Below, one piece after another: positions 39,317 through 47,791 of a stretch of 64,000 nucleotides of DNA. A model generated the notes under the pieces. It made no database searches, was not told the DNA's origin, and was given only the letters and a program-made list of their open reading frames with translations. The position numbers and the translations under genes were made by a program. Position 1 is the stretch's first letter. Each line of letters opens with the position of its first letter. Source of the stretch: Candidatus Dormiibacterota bacterium (GTDB taxonomy: Bacteria; Chloroflexota; Dormibacteria; Aeolococcales; Bog-877); contig DATLRH010000005.1 of assembly GCA_035534755.1 (NCBI GenBank), positions 83,881-147,880 on the forward strand, given 5' to 3'.

Positions 39317-40551
39317 TCAGCTGGCAAAGATCCGATTGGCCTCGCCCAGTGCGGCGACGAGGGCGTCGACATCGTGGCGGTTGTTGTACAGGTAGAAGCT
39401 GGCCCGGGCGGTGGCGGCCACCCGCAGATTCCGCATCAGAGGCTGGCAGCAGTGGTGGCCGGCCCGGATGGCCACCCCGAAGCGGTCGACTATGGTCCCC
39501 ACATCATGGGGATGGACTCCCTCGAGGTTGAACGAAACGATCCCCAGCTGGTCTGCTCCTCGAGGTCCGTAGCGGGTCAGCCCCGGGACCTCGGAGAGCA
39601 TCTCGTCGGCATACTCGGTGAGCTCGACGCCGTGGCGGTAGATGGCCGCCATGCCGACCCTCTCCAGGTAGTCGACGGCCGCCTGAAGCCCCGCCGCTCC
39701 CGCGATGTCGGGCGTTCCGGCCTCGAATTTGTGGGGGATCTCGTCCCAGGTGGTCTTCTCGAGCGTGACCACCGAGATCATCGATCCACCGGTGAGGAAT
39801 GGTGGCATCTCCTCGAGCAGTTCCGGCCGGCCGTAGAGCACCCCGATCCCGGTGGGCCCGCACATCTTGTGGGCGGAGAAGGCGTAGAAGTCGGCATCCA
39901 GGAGCCCGACGTCGACCGGCATGTGCGGCACCGCCTGGGCGCCGTCGACCAACACGGTGATCCCCTCGGCGTGGGCCCGGCCAATCAACTCCGCCACTGG
40001 GTTGATCGTCCCCAGCACATTGCTCACGTGGGTCACCGCCAGCAGCCGGGTAGGTGCCTGCAGAAGACGTTCCGTAGCCTCCCGATCAAGCCGCCCGCTC
40101 CGGTCGACCGGGATGAACTCCAGCTGGCACCCGGTCTGGTCCCGGACCCGCTGCCAGGGAACCAAGTTGGAGTGATGCTCCATCTCGGAGCAGACGATCC
40201 GATCCCCGGGGCCGAGTCGCTCTCGGGCGAAGGCCTGAGCGACCAGGTTAATCGCCTCGGTCGTGTTACGCACGAAAACGACTCCCCGGGGGTCCGCACC
40301 CACCAGGCGAGCCACTGCGGATCTAGCTCCCTCGAAGACTTCAGTCGCCCGCTCGCCCAAGACGTGGACCCCGCGGTGCACGTTGGCGTTGGCATGGGAG
40401 TAGTAGTCGCTGATCGCCTCGATCACGGCCGTCGGCTTTTGGGAGGTGGCAGCGCTGTCCAGATAGACCAGCTCCCGTCCATTGACCCTTTCCTTCAGGA
40501 TCGGGAATTCGGCCCGGACCAAGGCGACGTCCAGGGTCGGAGTCGTCATCA
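39317..40551 (-). CDS. sufS: Cysteine desulfurase SufS
   Basis: Class V aminotransferase fold; PLP-Lys region SAHKMCGPTGIGVLY; catalytic-Cys segment RAGHHCCQPLM; start placed at MTTPTLDVALVRAEFPIL. Confidence 0.85.
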
Positions 40552-40878
40552 CAGTTCTTCCTCGCTGAGCGCCACCCACAGCTCGCCACCGCGGACCTCC
40601 ACTCGGTGGACTCGCACCGGCTCGACCGCCGGGAGCCCAATCGGCTCGCCGGTCTCGAGGTCGAACTGGCTGCCGTGAAGGGGGCACTCGATGGCACAGT
40701 TCTTGGGGTGGAGCTCCCCTTCGGAGAGCGAGGCCATGGCGTGGCTGCAGGTGTCGTCGAGACAGTGGAAGGCACCGTCCACGTTGAACACCGCGATCGG
40801 CAGCTCACCGACCTCAACCCGCGCGGCGTGGCCCGGCGGGATGGCGGCGGCGTCGCAGATCTGAATCCACTCCCCCAT
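40549..40878 (-). CDS. Rieske [2Fe-2S] ferredoxin-like protein in the suf operon
   Basis: CSH...CPLHG Rieske motifs (DDTCSHAMASL...CAIECPLHGSQF). Confidence 0.75.
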   Translation of the reverse strand: MGEWIQICDAAAIPPGHAARVEVGELPIAVFNVDGAFHCLDDTCSHAMASLSEGELHPKNCAIECPLHGSQFDLETGEPIGLPAVEPVRVHRVEVRGGELWVALSEEEL

Positions 40879-43756: not shown

Positions 43757-44545
43757 CTAGGCCGCGGACGCGTCGTTCACTTCCAATCCCGCCTGGCGAA
43801 GCATGGGGTCGTACCCGTCCTTCTCGATCTGGTTCACCAGCTCACTCCCCCCCGAGGCGATGACCCTTCCGGCGGCCATCACATGGACCCGGTCGGGTTT
43901 GATGTAGTCCAGGATCCGCTGGTAGTGGGTGATGATCAAGACGCCCATACCCTGGCTGCGCACCCGGTTGACGCCCTCGGCTACGGTCCGAAGAGCGTCC
44001 ACGTCGAGGCCGCTGTCGGTCTCGTCCAGGATCGCCATTTCGGGTCTGAGCACCGCGAGCTGGACAATCTCCATCCGCTTCTTCTCTCCCCCGGAGAAGT
44101 TGTCGTTGATATAGCGCGACATGAAGGCCTGGTCCATCTTGAGCGCACTCATCTGATCGCGGACCAACTTGAGGAACTCCCGGGCCGGCAGGGACTTGCC
44201 CTGACCCTTGAGCGCCGCCCGGAGGAAGTTGACCGTGGTCACCCCGGGGATCGCGGTCGGGTACTGGAGACTCAGGAAAAGTCCCATCCGGGCTCGGTCC
44301 TCAGGGAGCTTGCCCAGCAGGCTCTGGTCCTTCCAGAGAATCTCGCCAGCGGTCACCTGGTACTTGGGATGACCCATAACGGCGTATCCGAGGCTGGTCT
44401 TGCCCGCGCCGTTGGGACCCATCAGCGCGTGCACCTCTCCCTGGGGCACGGCCAGGCTAACACCGGCGAGAATTCGCTTCCCATCGACGGCGACTTCCAG
44501 ATCGCGAATCTCAAGCGTGGCGCCGGCGGCGGTCGCTTCAGACAT
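43757..44545 (-). CDS. sufC: Fe-S cluster assembly ATPase SufC
   Basis: Walker A GPNGAGKTSLG, ABC signature FSGGEKKRMEIVQL, Walker B AILDETDSGLDVDA. Confidence 0.9.
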   Translation of the reverse strand: MSEATAAGATLEIRDLEVAVDGKRILAGVSLAVPQGEVHALMGPNGAGKTSLGYAVMGHPKYQVTAGEILWKDQSLLGKLPEDRARMGLFLSLQYPTAIPGVTTVNFLRAALKGQGKSLPAREFLKLVRDQMSALKMDQAFMSRYINDNFSGGEKKRMEIVQLAVLRPEMAILDETDSGLDVDALRTVAEGVNRVRSQGMGVLIITHYQRILDYIKPDRVHVMAAGRVIASGGSELVNQIEKDGYDPMLRQAGLEVNDASAA

Positions 44546-45023
44546 GCGCGGGCTGCCCCAGCTCGCGGCTAAAGGGGAGGCTCGCGACCGGGCACTCCGG
44601 GTCCAGGAACCCCGGCTCACGCAACATGTCCGCGAGCGTGGTTCCCCCCAGTACCTGCTGGACCGCGTGCTGGAGCCTTCCCCAGAGAGGCCGGCTGAGG
44701 CACTCAGGCTCCCTGGAGCAGGCCCCTGACTGGTAGTTTTCAGCCAAGCACTCGACCGGGGCCACCGGTCCTTCCATGAGCTCTACGATCTCAAGAACTG
44801 TCACATCCTGGGGGGTCCGGGCGAGCCTGTACCCACCGTGCAATCCGCGGGTGCCCTCGACCAGCCGGGCGCGGCGCAGCGGCGCAATCAGCTGCTCCAG
44901 GTAGGCCAGGGGCATTCCCTCTCGCCGGGCGATCTCGGCCAGGCTCAGGGGCGGCCCTCCGTGCCCCTTGGCTAGTTCGGTCATCATCCGGAGCCCGTAG
45001 TGGGCCCGGGACGAGATCCGCAT
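44538..45023 (-). CDS. Rrf2 family transcriptional regulator (IscR/SufR-like, Cys-cluster type)
   Basis: MRISSRAHYGLRMMTELA N-terminal wHTH; Cys cluster ECLAENYQSGACSREPEC consistent with an Fe-S-binding Rrf2; overlaps the sufC start. Confidence 0.75.
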   Translation of the reverse strand: MRISSRAHYGLRMMTELAKGHGGPPLSLAEIARREGMPLAYLEQLIAPLRRARLVEGTRGLHGGYRLARTPQDVTVLEIVELMEGPVAPVECLAENYQSGACSREPECLSRPLWGRLQHAVQQVLGGTTLADMLREPGFLDPECPVASLPFSRELGQPAHV

Positions 45024-45149
45024 CGCGACCGGGGTCGGGCCGATAAATCCGACTGGCACGCAGCCATTTTAGGCGCCGGGCCCGAGTCCCGGCCCACTGG
45101 AAGGGGAAGCCGGTCTCCTGCCAGGCCGCGACGGCGTGCCTACTTGGGG

Positions 45150-46247
45150 TCAGACGGCGAGCGCGCTCCGGCGCAGGGCGGCCACCTCGCGGCAGATCAG
45201 ACCGGCCGCTCGGGCCACCTCGGTCGCCGAGGTCGACCTGCCCAACGAGAGGCGAAGGTGGCCGGATGCCGTGTCGGGAGTCAGACCCATCGCCAGCAGA
45301 ACGTGCGAGGGAGCTAGCGACCCGCTGGCACAGGCCGAGCCTGCCGAGGCGCAGAGCCCGGCCCGGTCCAGGCGCAGCAGGAGCAACTCGCCCTCGACCC
45401 CCGGGAAGGCGAAGGTGCAAAAGTTGGGCAGCCGCTCACCGACCGGAGCACCGGTGGGAATGGCGTCGGGCAGCCCGGTGCTGATCAGCCGCCCGAGCTC
45501 GAGGGTGAGCGCGGCTTGGCGATCCATCTCGGCCTCCCGTTCGGCCTCCGCCAGCTGGGCGGCGATCCCAAAGCCGACGATCCCGGGGACGTTCTCCGTC
45601 CCCGAGCGCCGAGCCCGCTCCTGACCGCCTCCGGTGATCACCGGATCCAGAGCCGTCCCGTGCCGGGCGTAAAGGGCTCCCACCCCCTTGGGGCCGTAGA
45701 TCTTGTGGGCGGAGACGGTGAGAAGGTCCACCCCCAGCTCGCCGACGTCCAGTTTCAGCTTGCCCATCGCCTGCGTGGCATCGGTGTGGAAGACTGCCCG
45801 GGACCGCGAATGGGTGATTTCGGCCAGCTCCTGGATGGGCTCGAGAGTGCCCACCTCGTTGTTGGCCAGCATCACCGACACCAGCACGGTATCCGGCCTC
45901 AGCGCGGCCTCCAGAACCTCAGGCAGAACCCTACCGGCGCCATCCACCTCGAGCTCAGTTAGGTCGAATCCCTGGCGACGCAGATCGCGAGCGGTTTCCA
46001 GGATCGCCTCGTGCTCGATGGCGGAGATGATCAGGTGGCCGGCCGGCTTCCCCAGCTGGCGGACGACCCCGCGCAGAGCAAGGTTGTCGGACTCGCTTCC
46101 GCCCCCAGTGAAGACGATCTCCCGGGGTCGCGCGTGGAGGGCGACCGCCAACTGATCTCGAGCTCCGTCAACCAGAGCCCGGGCCGCCCGTCCGGCACCG
46201 TGGACGCTCGAGGGGTTGCCGAAAGTCTGGGACATGACCGGAACCAT
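45150..46247 (-). CDS. Cysteine desulfurase (IscS/NifS-like); the conserved N-terminus continues in-frame upstream of the first ATG with no canonical start
   Basis: PLP-Lys SAHKIYGPKGVGALY, catalytic SAGSACASG; upstream in-frame codons encode ...PTIYLDHAATTPIRREVLEA before the first ATG. Confidence 0.8.
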   Translation of the reverse strand: MVPVMSQTFGNPSSVHGAGRAARALVDGARDQLAVALHARPREIVFTGGGSESDNLALRGVVRQLGKPAGHLIISAIEHEAILETARDLRRQGFDLTELEVDGAGRVLPEVLEAALRPDTVLVSVMLANNEVGTLEPIQELAEITHSRSRAVFHTDATQAMGKLKLDVGELGVDLLTVSAHKIYGPKGVGALYARHGTALDPVITGGGQERARRSGTENVPGIVGFGIAAQLAEAEREAEMDRQAALTLELGRLISTGLPDAIPTGAPVGERLPNFCTFAFPGVEGELLLLRLDRAGLCASAGSACASGSLAPSHVLLAMGLTPDTASGHLRLSLGRSTSATEVARAAGLICREVAALRRSALAV

Positions 46248-46332
46248 CGCCTCGAGGACCTCGCGCCGGATCGGGGTGGTGGCGGCATGATCCAGATAGA
46301 TCGTGGGGGGCGCCGCCTCCAGGGCGACGGGG

Positions 46333-46677
46333 TCAGTCGTTGGCGCGCTCTTTGAGAAGTGCGGTCAACGGACCGGCATGCTCCCGCAGCGTCCGATGGA
46401 GCTCCAGCAACTCGTCATTGCTGATGGGATCCGCCTCCGAGGCCGGCGGCGCCGCCAGCCCGACCTCGAGCTCCGATTGCTCGCTCTGGGACTCGTCGCT
46501 GGGAGCCAGCTCCAGCGCCACCAAGAAGGCTAGCTCGCAGTTCCGGCAGGTGACCTCGACGGTGTACTTGCGGCCCTCGTGGTCGAGCTCCCTGAGCTTG
46601 CAATCCGCCAGGGAACGGCGGCACATTGGGCAGCGAAACGCTCCGGCTCTCTCGCGCAGGAATGCCAAGATATCCAT
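46333..46677 (-). CDS. Hypothetical zinc-ribbon protein
   Basis: CPMC...CRNC (two CxxC pairs) followed by an acidic helical region; good SD (GGAGGAAG) before the ATG. Confidence 0.4.
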   Translation of the reverse strand: MDILAFLRERAGAFRCPMCRRSLADCKLRELDHEGRKYTVEVTCRNCELAFLVALELAPSDESQSEQSELEVGLAAPPASEADPISNDELLELHRTLREHAGPLTALLKERAND

Positions 46678-46744: not shown

Positions 46745-47791
46745 TCAGCTGGGAAGGCGCTCCAGCACGGCGGCGGTGAACTCTTCGGTTCGGGCGTGTC
46801 CACCCAGGTCAGCGGTGCGGACTCCATCGAACACCGCGGCCATGGTGCCCTCCCGCACCTTGCCACCGAAGTCGACCAGGAACGGGTCGGAGGTGTGCTC
46901 CAGCAGCGCCGCGGCGGCCAGGATCATGGCCATCGGGTTAGCGATGTGCCGCCCCTGCAGAGCGGGAGCTGTTCCGTGGGGAGCCTCCGCCATGAGCAGA
47001 TTGGGCCGACTTGACTCGTCAAATCCGATCAGCAGCGACTCGCTCCCCGCCAGGGTGCCGTAAAGGGCGAGGACCAGGTCGGAGAGGATGTCGCCGTCGC
47101 GGTTCAGCGCCGGGATCACCAGCCGGTCGTCCCGGGTGAGGATCAAGGCGAAGGTCGCGTCGATCAGTTGAGGCTCGTAGCGGACTGCAGGATGGCGTCC
47201 ACTCGCGGCATCCATCTCTTCCTTGAGCATCCCCTCGTAGACCCGCGAAACCGTGAACTTCGGACCCCCGAAAACAGTCGCCCCAGTGCGACCCGCCTCC
47301 ACGAAGGCGTACTCAGCGACCCGCCGACAGTGCTCCCGGCTGATCTTGGTGGTGCGGAAGGAAAGCTCGTTGGCACCTTCCCCTTGCCTCCACTCCAGGG
47401 CCCCATAGGCGTCGTCCACAGCCATGCGGACCACGGTGATGGGGGAATGGACCCCCCCCAGCGGGGCGACCCCGGGGATGCGTCGCCCAGTGCGGACGAT
47501 GACGTCTCCGCCGACCTCGGCGCGGAGGATGGCGTTCGGGCTCTCGATCTGACCGATCCCCTCAGGCGTGACGGTCGCCGCCTTGAGCCCGAAGTGGCTA
47601 GCACACATCATCTGAGCCGCCTGGTGAACCACCTGGTTGGCGCTCGCCTGGCGCGACTGGAGGCTGAGGTCGACATGCTCCAGGGTCAACCGCGAGGCCA
47701 GCCCGGGCAAGCTCAGGACCCGGAGTGCCTCCACCAGGAGCTCCTCGCCGGTCTGATCCCCGTGCAGGACCGTGATTGTGGGACGAGCCAC
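46745..47791 (-). CDS. Isocitrate/isopropylmalate dehydrogenase family protein
   Basis: NRDGDILSDLVLALYGTLAGSESL matches the N[LR]xGDIxSD family signature; 348 aa. Confidence 0.7.
   Translation of the reverse strand: MARPTITVLHGDQTGEELLVEALRVLSLPGLASRLTLEHVDLSLQSRQASANQVVHQAAQMMCASHFGLKAATVTPEGIGQIESPNAILRAEVGGDVIVRTGRRIPGVAPLGGVHSPITVVRMAVDDAYGALEWRQGEGANELSFRTTKISREHCRRVAEYAFVEAGRTGATVFGGPKFTVSRVYEGMLKEEMDAASGRHPAVRYEPQLIDATFALILTRDDRLVIPALNRDGDILSDLVLALYGTLAGSESLLIGFDESSRPNLLMAEAPHGTAPALQGRHIANPMAMILAAAALLEHTSDPFLVDFGGKVREGTMAAVFDGVRTADLGGHARTEEFTAAVLERLPS

What the first reader, a model, noticed from the sequence alone, without database searches (positions are those of the whole stretch)
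46248..46340. Cysteine desulfurase lacks a canonical start codon for its conserved N-terminus; +1 frame relation to upstream zinc-ribbon ORF
The IscS/NifS-like ORF has its first ATG at 46247 (MVPVMSQ...). The conserved desulfurase N-terminal segment (...PTIYLDHAATTPIRREVLEA) is encoded in-frame immediately upstream. It lies between a TGA stop and the ATG, with no ATG, GTG or TTG codon in between; only CTG and ATC are available. The upstream 113-aa zinc-ribbon ORF (46333..46677) terminates exactly there. The desulfurase frame is +1 relative to it. The possibilities are a rare non-canonical start, a programmed or erroneous +1 shift fusing the two proteins, or a 1-nt sequencing indel.
Basis: seen in the sequence. 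Interest (0 to 1): 0.55.

Follow-up and report, generated by a model that had tools for sequence, protein, structure and literature searches.

The report
Cysteine desulfurase with non-canonical start codon
A normal-looking, evolutionarily constrained cysteine desulfurase gene in a Dormibacteria soil bacterium has no ATG/GTG/TTG start in front of its conserved beginning. The same is true in about half of its relatives, so it most likely starts at a rare codon such as CTG and is not a sequencing error or a fusion protein.

Summary
On the minus strand, the NifS/IscS-like ORF has its first canonical start at ATG 46247. The Aminotran_5 domain, however, begins 18 codons upstream at ATC 46301. No ATG, GTG or TTG lies between the in-frame TGA (46367-46365) and that ATG.

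A sequencing indel is excluded. The junction is identical in three other assemblies, and 14 of 26 distinct Dormibacteria lineages show the same start-less layout. All 12 start-less lineages checked have intact ORFs, and their 18 "orphan" codons are under purifying selection (pN/pS 0.20).

A zinc-ribbon–desulfurase fusion is not supported. No fused homolog appears among 1.84 billion representatives. There is no slippery site and no significant RNA structure, and sister lineages have ordinary starts after the zinc-ribbon stop.

Most likely the enzyme is a separate protein initiated at a near-cognate codon. For this window CTG 46322 is favoured. It lies 10 nt after the zinc-ribbon stop, and in a sister subclade that position holds a conserved GTG start. 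NCBI already uses it (HVC38605.1, 390 aa). ATC 46301 is the main alternative.

One puzzle remains: the stop-to-domain spacer is always 3n+1 nt long. The case is ordinary to mildly interesting.

The parts
46333..46677 (-). Zinc-ribbon ORF (114 aa, C4 motif CPMC...CRNC plus a C-terminal helix). It has a strong Shine-Dalgarno (SD, ribosome-binding) sequence, GGAGG, 5 nt before its ATG.
   Evidence: no Pfam or NCBIfam hit; AlphaFold2 (AF2) structure model shows a zinc-ribbon sheet plus helix
46365..46367 (-). TGA that closes the desulfurase reading frame upstream. It arises from the Leu-Thr codons of the zinc-ribbon ORF.
   Evidence: present in most lineages
46338..46340 (-). In-frame ACG, two codons before the GAC codon that spans the zinc-ribbon stop, with AAAGAG 7 nt upstream. 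It is present in 21 of the 26 lineages even though the last two zinc-ribbon residues vary. Minor start candidate.
46333..46335 (-). TGA stop of the zinc-ribbon ORF, read as ..T GA. in the desulfurase frame
   Evidence: TGA in the same frame relation in all 26 lineages
46302..46332 (-). 31-nt spacer between the zinc-ribbon stop and the first conserved desulfurase codon. The sequence is hypervariable, but the length is always 3n+1 across lineages.
46320..46322 (-). CTG, the favoured initiation codon. It lies 10 nt after the zinc-ribbon stop and gives a 390-aa protein, MEAAPPTIYLD...
   Evidence: exact match to NCBI HVC38605.1; a sister subclade has a conserved GTG start at this position
46316..46320 (-). 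GGAGG motif. It lies 14 nt before ATC 46301 and 11 nt before ACG 46304, which is longer than the 5-6 nt spacing seen at the window genes that have a clear GGAGG-type SD.
46299..46301 (-). ATC (Ile of IYLD). It is the first codon of the conserved domain and the alternative initiation codon.
   Evidence: NCBI starts the L114/L115 ortholog at this codon
46248..46301 (-). 18 codons, IYLDHAATTPIRREVLEA: the conserved N-terminal desulfurase segment that precedes the first canonical start
   Evidence: entropy by codon phase 0.32/0.23/0.97; pN/pS 0.20 among start-less lineages
46245..46247 (-). First ATG. It is a conserved internal Met (LEAM), and several gene callers use it as the start, giving 365-aa truncated products.
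45150..46322 (-). NifS/IscS-like cysteine desulfurase gene as best delimited (CTG start to TGA stop)
44538..45023 (-). Rrf2-family regulator gene, immediately downstream. It is followed by sufC, sufB, sufD and sufS (context).

Best explanation
The desulfurase is a separate, functional protein. Its translation starts at a near-cognate codon, not at ATG, GTG or TTG, and the conserved IYLDHAATTP... segment is translated.

For this window the most likely start is CTG 46322-46320. It lies 10 nt downstream of the stop of the well-translated zinc-ribbon ORF. That distance is close enough for translational coupling, where ribosomes finishing one ORF help start the next. Start at CTG is about 0.35 of the total probability. 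ATC 46301, with the adjacent ACG 46304, is the main alternative at about 0.2.

The family shows start-codon turnover. Different lineages start at -5/-4 codons (overlapping the zinc-ribbon 3' end), in mid-spacer, or directly before IYLD. About half have no canonical start at all.

Shown here: the absence of a canonical start, translation of and selection on the N-terminal segment, recurrence across lineages, and the absence of fusions.

Inferred: which codon is used, and that coupling to the zinc-ribbon ORF helps.
For: The gap between the domain start and the first canonical start is real:
- There is no ATG/GTG/TTG between the in-frame stop and ATG 46247.
- Domain models and solved structures start at I22.

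The sequence is reproducible:
- The junction is identical in 3 other assemblies.

The layout recurs and the gene stays functional:
- 14 of 26 distinct lineages lack a canonical start before the I codon.
- All 12 start-less lineages examined have intact 381-400-codon ORFs.
- Their 18 N-terminal codons have pS 0.51 and pN 0.10, ratio 0.20. The next 50 codons give 0.28.

Support for CTG 46322 in particular:
- NCBI protein HVC38605.1 (390 aa, MEAAPPTIYLD) is an exact match to a CTG 46322 start.
- This CTG occupies the position of the GTG start that is conserved in the 390-aa subclade. That GTG is present in loci L095/97/98/99, and the called proteins P0010, 15, 19, 24, 29, 30 and 33 start at the same position.

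Support for non-canonical starts in orthologs:
- NCBI calls CTG or ATC starts in two orthologs, L111 and L114/L115.
- L122 has only ATC and the CTG of YLD as near-cognates, while its sister L106 has GTG immediately before ATC.

Background from papers:
- In E. coli, CUG, AUC, AUU and AUA initiate at about 1-2% of AUG (bioRxiv 10.1101/063800).
- Coupling by termination-reinitiation works only at very short stop-to-start distances (PMC10666635).
- Many genes in the window have no SD sequence, so SD-independent initiation is normal here.
Against: - There is no direct evidence of initiation: no proteomics and no ribosome profiling. The organism is uncultured.
- CTG at this position is present only in WIN (this window), L084 and L096, so no single near-cognate codon explains all start-less lineages. 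L100 even has CTC at the I position.
- No SD sequence sits at a normal distance from any candidate.
- Near-cognate initiation is inefficient in E. coli.
- The NCBI call is automated and not experimental.
- The conserved 3n+1 spacer length is not explained if initiation is inside or after the spacer.
Confidence: 0.62

Rival explanations
1. Initiation is at ATC 46301 (or the adjacent ACG 46304). This is the ancestral start position of the family (M-IYLD), and it would give a ~383-aa protein with no N-terminal extension.
For: - Profile models and many orthologs begin exactly here: MIYLD in P0046-P0064, GTG-ATC in L106 and L123, TTG-ATC in L121.
- NCBI starts the L114/L115 ortholog at ATC.
- L122 has essentially no other near-cognate codon.
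- GGAGG lies 11-14 nt upstream in the window.
Against: - ATC is 31 nt from the zinc-ribbon stop, too far for termination-reinitiation (PMC10666635).
- The GGAGG spacing is about twice the 5-6 nt seen at SD-bearing genes here.
- L100 has CTC at this position.
- Ile codons are all near-cognate, so their presence carries no information.
- It does not explain the 3n+1 spacer rule.
Confidence: 0.2
2. Initiation is at ACG 46340, inside the last codons of the zinc-ribbon ORF (8-nt overlap), with the purine-rich AAAGAG/AAGGAG 7 nt upstream acting as a weak SD sequence. The whole spacer would then be a floppy N-terminal extension.
For: - ACG is retained in 21 of the 26 lineages, although the last zinc-ribbon dipeptide varies: ND, DG, DD, HA, HG, always NAC GNC TGA.
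- The synonymous third positions of the last two zinc-ribbon codons never vary; only 4 of 28 comparable columns behave this way.
- The AG-rich motif keeps a 7-nt spacing in divergent lineages.
- It would explain the 3n+1 spacer rule and the absence of in-frame stops in the spacer.
- Other subclades have ATG or GTG starts 2-3 codons further upstream, overlapping the zinc-ribbon end.
Against: - ACG is a poor initiator in E. coli, 0.1-1% of AUG.
- Start-less L122 and L107 lack this ACG.
- A synonymous AAC to AAT change would create ATG, yet it is never seen.
- The spacer shows no codon periodicity (1.07/1.19/1.23).
- The statistics are weak and not phylogenetically independent.
Confidence: 0.1
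3. A programmed +1 ribosomal frameshift at or just before the zinc-ribbon TGA produces a zinc-ribbon–desulfurase fusion protein.
For: - The +1 frame relation and the 3n+1 spacer are conserved in all 26 lineages.
- The stop is always TGA, preceded by C and followed by C, G or A, which recalls the weak UGA-C termination context of prfB (own knowledge).
- The desulfurase frame is open for the last 6-10 zinc-ribbon codons.
Against: - No fused protein is found among 42 close homologs, 141 profile hits in 1.84 billion representatives, or 120 desulfurase homologs.
- The codon before the stop varies (GAC, GGC, GCC, CCC, TCC) and is mostly non-slippery.
- The SD-like motif is 9-10 nt away, not 3 nt.
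- There is no significant local RNA structure (z = -1.25) and no Rfam hit.
- Twelve lineages have conventional starts in the region, nine of them downstream of the stop.
Confidence: 0.04
4. Translation really starts at ATG 46247, giving a truncated 365-aa product, or the gene is decaying.
For: Several gene callers (JGI, ENA, Logan) choose this start for more than 15 ortholog clusters.
Against: - The 18 upstream codons are under purifying selection as strong as the rest of the gene in start-less lineages.
- They form the start of the fold in all solved homologs.
- This Met is conserved as an internal residue in orthologs that have canonical upstream starts.
- All ORFs are intact.
Confidence: 0.04
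5. A 1-nt sequencing or assembly indel, for example in the C6 run at 46305-46310, hides the true start.
For: A six-C homopolymer lies in the spacer.
Against: - The junction is identical in three other assemblies and in the NCBI protein.
- Relatives lacking the homopolymer are also start-less.
- Neither alternative frame contains ATG, GTG or TTG in the spacer, so an indel could not supply a start.
Confidence: 0.01

Closest known systems
Bacterial genes with annotated near-cognate start codons (e.g. infC and pcnB with AUU in E. coli; CTG/ATT/ATC/ATA starts allowed by translation table 11 and used by NCBI PGAP)
   Same: There is no ATG/GTG/TTG in front of a conserved N-terminus, and an in-frame CTG or ATC sits at the expected position. 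NCBI already annotates this very protein from CTG (HVC38605.1). Near-cognate codons are measurably active in E. coli.
   Different: The loss of a canonical start recurs in about half of a whole clade. The usable near-cognate codon is not at one fixed position. No autoregulatory logic like that of infC is known here, and no experimental evidence exists for this gene.
Translationally coupled gene pairs (termination-reinitiation; Huber et al. 2023, PMC10666635)
   Same: A small upstream ORF with a strong SD sequence ends 10 nt before the favoured start. The adjacency is strictly conserved. In some sister lineages the desulfurase start overlaps the upstream ORF's end.
   Different: Typical coupled pairs overlap by 4 or 1 nt and use canonical starts. 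Here the distance is +10 nt (or -8, or +31, depending on the start), the start is non-canonical, and coupling is untested.
prfB-type programmed +1 frameshifting
   Same: The downstream frame is +1. The upstream ORF ends in UGA, followed by C in this window as in prfB (C, G or A in other lineages). A purine-rich motif lies upstream.
   Different: There is no slippery CUU-U-like codon and the stimulator spacing is wrong. The shift site is not conserved, no in-frame fused orthologs exist, and many orthologs initiate independently.
Group I (NifS/IscS-type) cysteine desulfurases, PF00266
   Same: Full-length Aminotran_5 match (251 bits). The SAHK PLP-lysine motif and the GSACASGS catalytic-cysteine loop are present. 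There is 40-50% similarity to solved IscS/NifS enzymes.
   Different: It scores below the equivalog cut-offs for NifS, IscS and DndA. It sits next to a clade-specific zinc-ribbon gene and upstream of an Rrf2 regulator and a suf operon that has its own SufS.

Membership tests
Cysteine desulfurase, class-V aminotransferase fold (PF00266) | Full-length match to the Aminotran_5 profile above the gathering score | tested here: met
   251.1 bits against a cut-off of 21.5; profile positions 1-369 of 371 align to residues 22-384 of the extended translation
Cysteine desulfurase, class-V aminotransferase fold (PF00266) | PLP-binding lysine (S-x-H-K) and the catalytic cysteine loop of group I enzymes | tested here: met
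   SAHKIYGPKG and SAGSACASGSLAPSHV read directly in the translation; they align with the equivalent motifs of the solved cysteine desulfurase 9wep
NifS (TIGR03402) / IscS (TIGR02006, NF010611) equivalogs | Score above the curated equivalog cut-off | tested here: not met
   NifS 443.6 against 530.75; IscS 335.8 against 643.2 and 349.8 against 548. Only the label 'cysteine desulfurase family protein' is justified.
Gene with a non-canonical (near-cognate) initiation codon | No in-frame ATG/GTG/TTG upstream of a conserved, selected N-terminal segment | tested here: met
Gene with a non-canonical (near-cognate) initiation codon | Not explained by a sequence error | tested here: met
   Identical junction in three other assemblies plus the NCBI protein; 13 further start-less lineages
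Gene with a non-canonical (near-cognate) initiation codon | Direct demonstration of initiation at the codon (N-terminal peptide, initiation-site ribosome profiling, mutagenesis) | not testable with these tools
   Uncultured lineage; no such data are available in the tools
Programmed +1 ribosomal frameshift (prfB-like) | Conserved slippery P-site codon next to a poor stop, with an SD-like stimulator about 3 nt upstream | tested here: not met
   The codon before TGA is GAC, GGC, GCC, CCC or TCC across lineages; the purine-rich motif lies 9-10 nt upstream
Programmed +1 ribosomal frameshift (prfB-like) | Orthologs in which the two ORFs are fused in frame | tested here: not met
   None among 42 close homologs plus 141 profile hits for the zinc-ribbon protein, or among 120 desulfurase homologs
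Programmed +1 ribosomal frameshift (prfB-like) | Conserved +1 frame relation between the two ORFs | tested here: met
   The spacer is 3n+1 in all 26 lineages
Termination-reinitiation coupled gene pair | Stop of the upstream ORF overlaps the downstream start or lies within about 10-20 nt of it | tested here: inconclusive
   10 nt to CTG 46322, an 8-nt overlap for ACG 46340, 31 nt to ATC 46301. The verdict depends on the unknown start.
Termination-reinitiation coupled gene pair | Downstream translation depends on upstream translation | not testable with these tools
   Needs reporter experiments

The most novel reading that the evidence does not exclude
The invariant +1 (3n+1) relation between the zinc-ribbon stop and the desulfurase frame may be functional. 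It occurs together with repeated loss of canonical starts and a retained ACG (21 of 26 lineages) overlapping the zinc-ribbon end.

One possibility is a frame-registered hand-over of ribosomes from the zinc-ribbon ORF to the desulfurase ORF. This could be reinitiation that needs no canonical start codon, or a low-level +1 fusion product. It would set a fixed, low stoichiometry between a putative zinc-ribbon partner protein and the enzyme.
Probability: 0.08. Interest if true: 0.7.

Novelty: new member of a known kind. Interest (0 to 1): 0.33.

Why it matters
**Database quality.** At least 15 ortholog clusters in public protein sets are truncated by 18 conserved residues, because common gene callers allow only ATG, GTG and TTG. 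Annotation of Dormibacteria Fe-S genes should be corrected accordingly.

**Biology.** A housekeeping-type enzyme has persisted under purifying selection without a canonical start in about half of a clade. This is a clean natural case of start-codon turnover and near-cognate initiation in an uncultured phylum. It suggests deliberately low or coupled expression next to a conserved, uncharacterised zinc-ribbon protein. It does not by itself reveal a new mechanism.

Tried and rejected
- **Genome-contig scan with the desulfurase.** It returned only distant relatives (40-53% identity), because one search pattern was generic.
- **Fusion search.** The zinc-ribbon profile was run against 1.84 billion representatives. 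The few long hits (P0190 at 267 aa, P0192 at 2110 aa) are R-rich or low-complexity artefacts, not desulfurase fusions.
- **RNA element.** There is no Rfam hit, and the junction folds no better than shuffled sequence (z = -1.25).
- **Translational bypassing (hop from GAC to a downstream GAU).** Rejected by reading the sequence: the landing site would resume in the wrong frame, and the spacer is hypervariable.
- **Genome-wide relaxed start usage.** Nine other ORFs in the window with long start-free upstream stretches all have their Pfam domains after the first canonical start. The effect is specific to this gene in this sample.
- **GTG/ATG at the -4 codon as the universal start.** This codon is G-N-G, where N is the synonymous site of a zinc-ribbon Arg codon. 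It varies as GCG, GTG, GGG or GAG (and differs outright in the divergent lineages), so the GTG there looks neutral.
- **Codon periodicity in the spacer.** None was found.
- **Stop-codon counts in the spacer.** 0 in the desulfurase frame against 3 and 2 in the other frames. This is suggestive only.
- **Fold search for the zinc-ribbon model.** It gave only weak generic zinc-ribbon matches: the NrdR N-terminus and Rpp21, E >= 0.04.
- **Look-up of the NCBI contig for HVC38605.1.** Nothing on record.

Full report
**What is in the sequence.** All relevant genes are on the minus strand.
- A 114-aa ORF with a C4 zinc-ribbon motif runs from ATG 46677 to TGA 46335-46333.
- In the +1 frame relative to it lies a NifS/IscS-like cysteine desulfurase ending at 45150. 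Its first ATG/GTG/TTG is ATG 46247.
- Translating that frame upstream gives TGA (46367-46365) followed by PHFSKSAPTTDPVALEAAPPTIYLDHAATTPIRREVLEA and then the Met. None of these 39 codons is ATG, GTG or TTG.
- One-mismatch near-cognates are AAG 46352, ACG 46340, CTG 46322, ACG 46304, ATC 46301, CTG 46295 and ATC 46271.
- Pfam Aminotran_5 (251 bits) and TIGR03402 both place profile position 1 on I22, which is ATC 46301.
- Solved IscS/NifS enzymes align their residues 3-6 there.

The zinc-ribbon ORF is 114 aa. The TGA that closes the desulfurase frame is at 46367; the zinc-ribbon stop is in a different frame.

**Whose genome.** The closest desulfurase and zinc-ribbon homologs are almost all from MAGs named Candidatus Dormibacteraeota/Dormibacteria. 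The local gene order is conserved in every related locus long enough to show it:
- PIG-L deacetylase, isocitrate/isopropylmalate dehydrogenase, zinc-ribbon ORF, desulfurase, Rrf2 regulator, sufC, sufB, sufD, sufS.

**Not a sequencing artefact.** The 160-nt junction is identical in three other assemblies: ENA ERZ27256799, ERZ924426/SRR5487326 and JGI 3300031670. These may derive from related samples. An NCBI MAG protein also matches exactly through the spacer-encoded residues. The next species (81% identity) has the C6 run interrupted and keeps the same architecture. Neither of the other two frames has a canonical start in the spacer, so a 1-nt indel could not supply one.

**A clade-wide pattern.** I read the junction in 26 distinct lineages.
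- Fourteen have no ATG/GTG/TTG between the in-frame stop and the Ile codon of IYLD: the window (WIN), L091, L093, L096, L100, L104, L105, L107, L110, L112, L114, L116, L118 and L122.
- The other twelve have canonical starts at several different positions:
  - -4 codons from the GAN codon spanning the zinc-ribbon stop, overlapping the zinc-ribbon end by 14 nt (L084, L090, L108).
  - Mid-spacer codon 4 (L095, L097, L098, L099).
  - Mid-spacer codon 6 (L101, L120).
  - Directly before IYLD (L106, L121, L123).
- Protein-only evidence adds more. Many orthologs start MIYLD. Several start 4-5 codons before that GAN codon: P0002, P0034, 36, 42, 44, 45, 48, 50 and 62.
- This is start-codon turnover. 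It also explains why public sets hold more than 15 clusters of 363-365-aa products, all starting at the same internal Met.

**The orphan segment is translated.** From the Ile codon onward, column entropy by codon position is 0.32/0.23/0.97. Among 12 start-less lineages, all with intact ORFs of 381-400 codons, the 18 codons before the internal Met have pS 0.51 and pN 0.10, ratio 0.20. This is at least as constrained as the next 50 codons, at 0.28. A product starting at ATG 46247, or a decaying gene, is therefore unlikely.

**No support for a fusion or frameshift.**
- The zinc-ribbon family comprises 42 close homologs of 84-124 aa. A profile search of 1.84 billion representatives gave 141 hits, almost all under 185 aa. 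The few longer ones are artefacts without desulfurase sequence.
- None of the 120 best desulfurase homologs carries a zinc-ribbon domain.
- The codon before the stop is GAC, GGC, GCC, CCC or TCC, so no conserved slippery site exists.
- The purine-rich motif is 9-10 nt upstream, not the 3 nt of prfB.
- The region folds no better than shuffles (z = -1.25) and matches no Rfam family.

**Which codon?** This cannot be settled by comparison alone, but the evidence can be ranked.
- CTG 46322 is favoured, for three reasons.
  - It lies 10 nt after the zinc-ribbon stop.
  - It occupies the same spacer codon as the GTG that is conserved as the start of the 390-aa subclade, where neighbouring residues vary.
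  - It is the start in the NCBI protein HVC38605.1, MEAAPPTIYLD..., 390 aa. That call is automated.
- ATC 46301 is the ancestral start neighbourhood (M-IYLD).
  - NCBI starts the L114/L115 ortholog there, and starts L111 at the CTG of YLD.
  - L122 has essentially only ATC available, while its sister L106 has GTG one codon upstream.
- Against any single answer: CTG 46322 is shared only with L084 and L096, and L100 has CTC at the Ile position.
- From papers: in E. coli, CUG, AUC, AUU and AUA initiate at roughly 1-2% of AUG, and other codons including ACG at 0.1-1% (10.1101/063800). Termination-reinitiation is almost abolished by about 20 nt of intergenic distance (PMC10666635). This favours CTG over ATC if coupling matters.
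- SD use in the window is mixed. Some genes, including the zinc-ribbon ORF, have GGAGG 5-6 nt from the start, and many have none. The GGAGG at 46320-46316 is 14 nt from ATC, so it is poorly placed.

**Unexplained features.**
- The spacer between the zinc-ribbon stop and the Ile codon is hypervariable and lacks codon periodicity (1.07/1.19/1.23). Yet its length is 31 (x16), 28, 22 (x3), 19 (x3), 13 or 10 nt, always 3n+1.
- Distances between fixed anchors (GPLT in the zinc-ribbon protein, IYLD in the desulfurase) are 73, 70, 64 and 55 nt. So at least three true indels occurred, in or near the spacer, and all are multiples of three.
- The simplest reading is that many lineages translate the spacer as a floppy N-terminal extension from starts overlapping the zinc-ribbon end. 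This is shown only for some lineages.
- An in-frame ACG two codons before that GAN codon is present in 21 of the 26 lineages, although the last zinc-ribbon dipeptide varies (ND, DG, DD, HA, HG). The synonymous third positions of those two codons never change. Only 4 of 28 comparable columns are equally invariant.
- This keeps a minor ACG-start hypothesis alive. It also keeps alive, at low probability, a frame-registered coupling or fusion model. Start-less L122 and L107 lack this ACG.

**Comparison with known systems and verdict.** The enzyme is a group I, PF00266 cysteine desulfurase. It scores below the NifS and IscS equivalog cut-offs. The start problem belongs to the known category of near-cognate initiation codons, and the public NCBI record already annotates it that way. 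What is new is modest:
- the recurrence in about half of a clade;
- the turnover of start positions;
- the strict adjacency and frame relation to an uncharacterised zinc-ribbon gene.

I rate it a new member of a known kind, with moderate-to-low interest.

Noticed in passing
window 46333-46677 (-); loci L081-L124: The zinc-ribbon protein is a conserved, unannotated family with no Pfam or NCBIfam hit. It has a CPxC...CxxC ribbon, a variable acidic linker and a conserved C-terminal helix, DPISNDELLELHRxLxxHxGPLTALL. It sits immediately upstream of the NifS-like gene in every locus that extends that far. A profile search finds 141 representatives, nearly all small stand-alone proteins. It could be a partner or regulator of the desulfurase.
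   Followed up: partly
window 46302-46332 (-) and the equivalent spacers in 25 other lineages: The spacer between the zinc-ribbon stop and the first conserved desulfurase codon is hypervariable in sequence. Its length is always 3n+1 nt (31, 28, 22, 19, 13 or 10). It never has a stop in the desulfurase frame, against 5 stops in the other two frames.
   Followed up: partly
window 46336-46341 (-): The last two zinc-ribbon codons follow NAC GNC before TGA in 21 of 26 lineages, while the encoded dipeptide changes (ND, DG, DD, HA, HG). This preserves an ACG in the desulfurase frame. A synonymous AAC to AAT change would create ATG, and it is never seen.
   Followed up: partly
public protein clusters P0001, P0008, P0016, P0018, P0022, P0025, P0026, P0028, P0031, P0032, P0035, P0037, P0040, P0041, P0065, P0069: Gene callers that allow only ATG, GTG and TTG systematically truncate this desulfurase to 363-365 aa. 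NCBI PGAP instead gives CTG or ATC starts (390, 379 and 381 aa) for the same or orthologous genes. Databases therefore hold inconsistent N-termini.
   Followed up: yes
window 39317-40804 (-): A second cysteine desulfurase of the SufS type (Aminotran_5, 485 bits) closes the adjacent sufCBDS cluster. The organism therefore has two desulfurases within 7 kb, which may allow low expression of the NifS-like one.
   Followed up: partly
window 44538-45059 (-): The start of the Rrf2 regulator is ambiguous. The longest ORF starts at GTG 45059 (173 aa), but the Rrf2 domain and most callers fit ATG 45023 (161 aa). Different assemblies are annotated differently.
   Followed up: no
window 46745-47791 (-): The isocitrate/isopropylmalate dehydrogenase gene is called as 348 aa in most assemblies but 329 aa in one. 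This is another start-site inconsistency in the same operon.
   Followed up: no
window 46286-46288 (-): An out-of-frame ATG (GGATCATGCC) lies inside the DHA codons of the desulfurase and opens an 85-aa ORF in another frame. It is almost certainly spurious, but it could mislead start prediction.
   Followed up: no
window 46011-46355 (+) and many others: Long antisense ORFs with high GC3 overlap the real genes, as expected at 68% GC. They are not evidence of genes.
   Followed up: no
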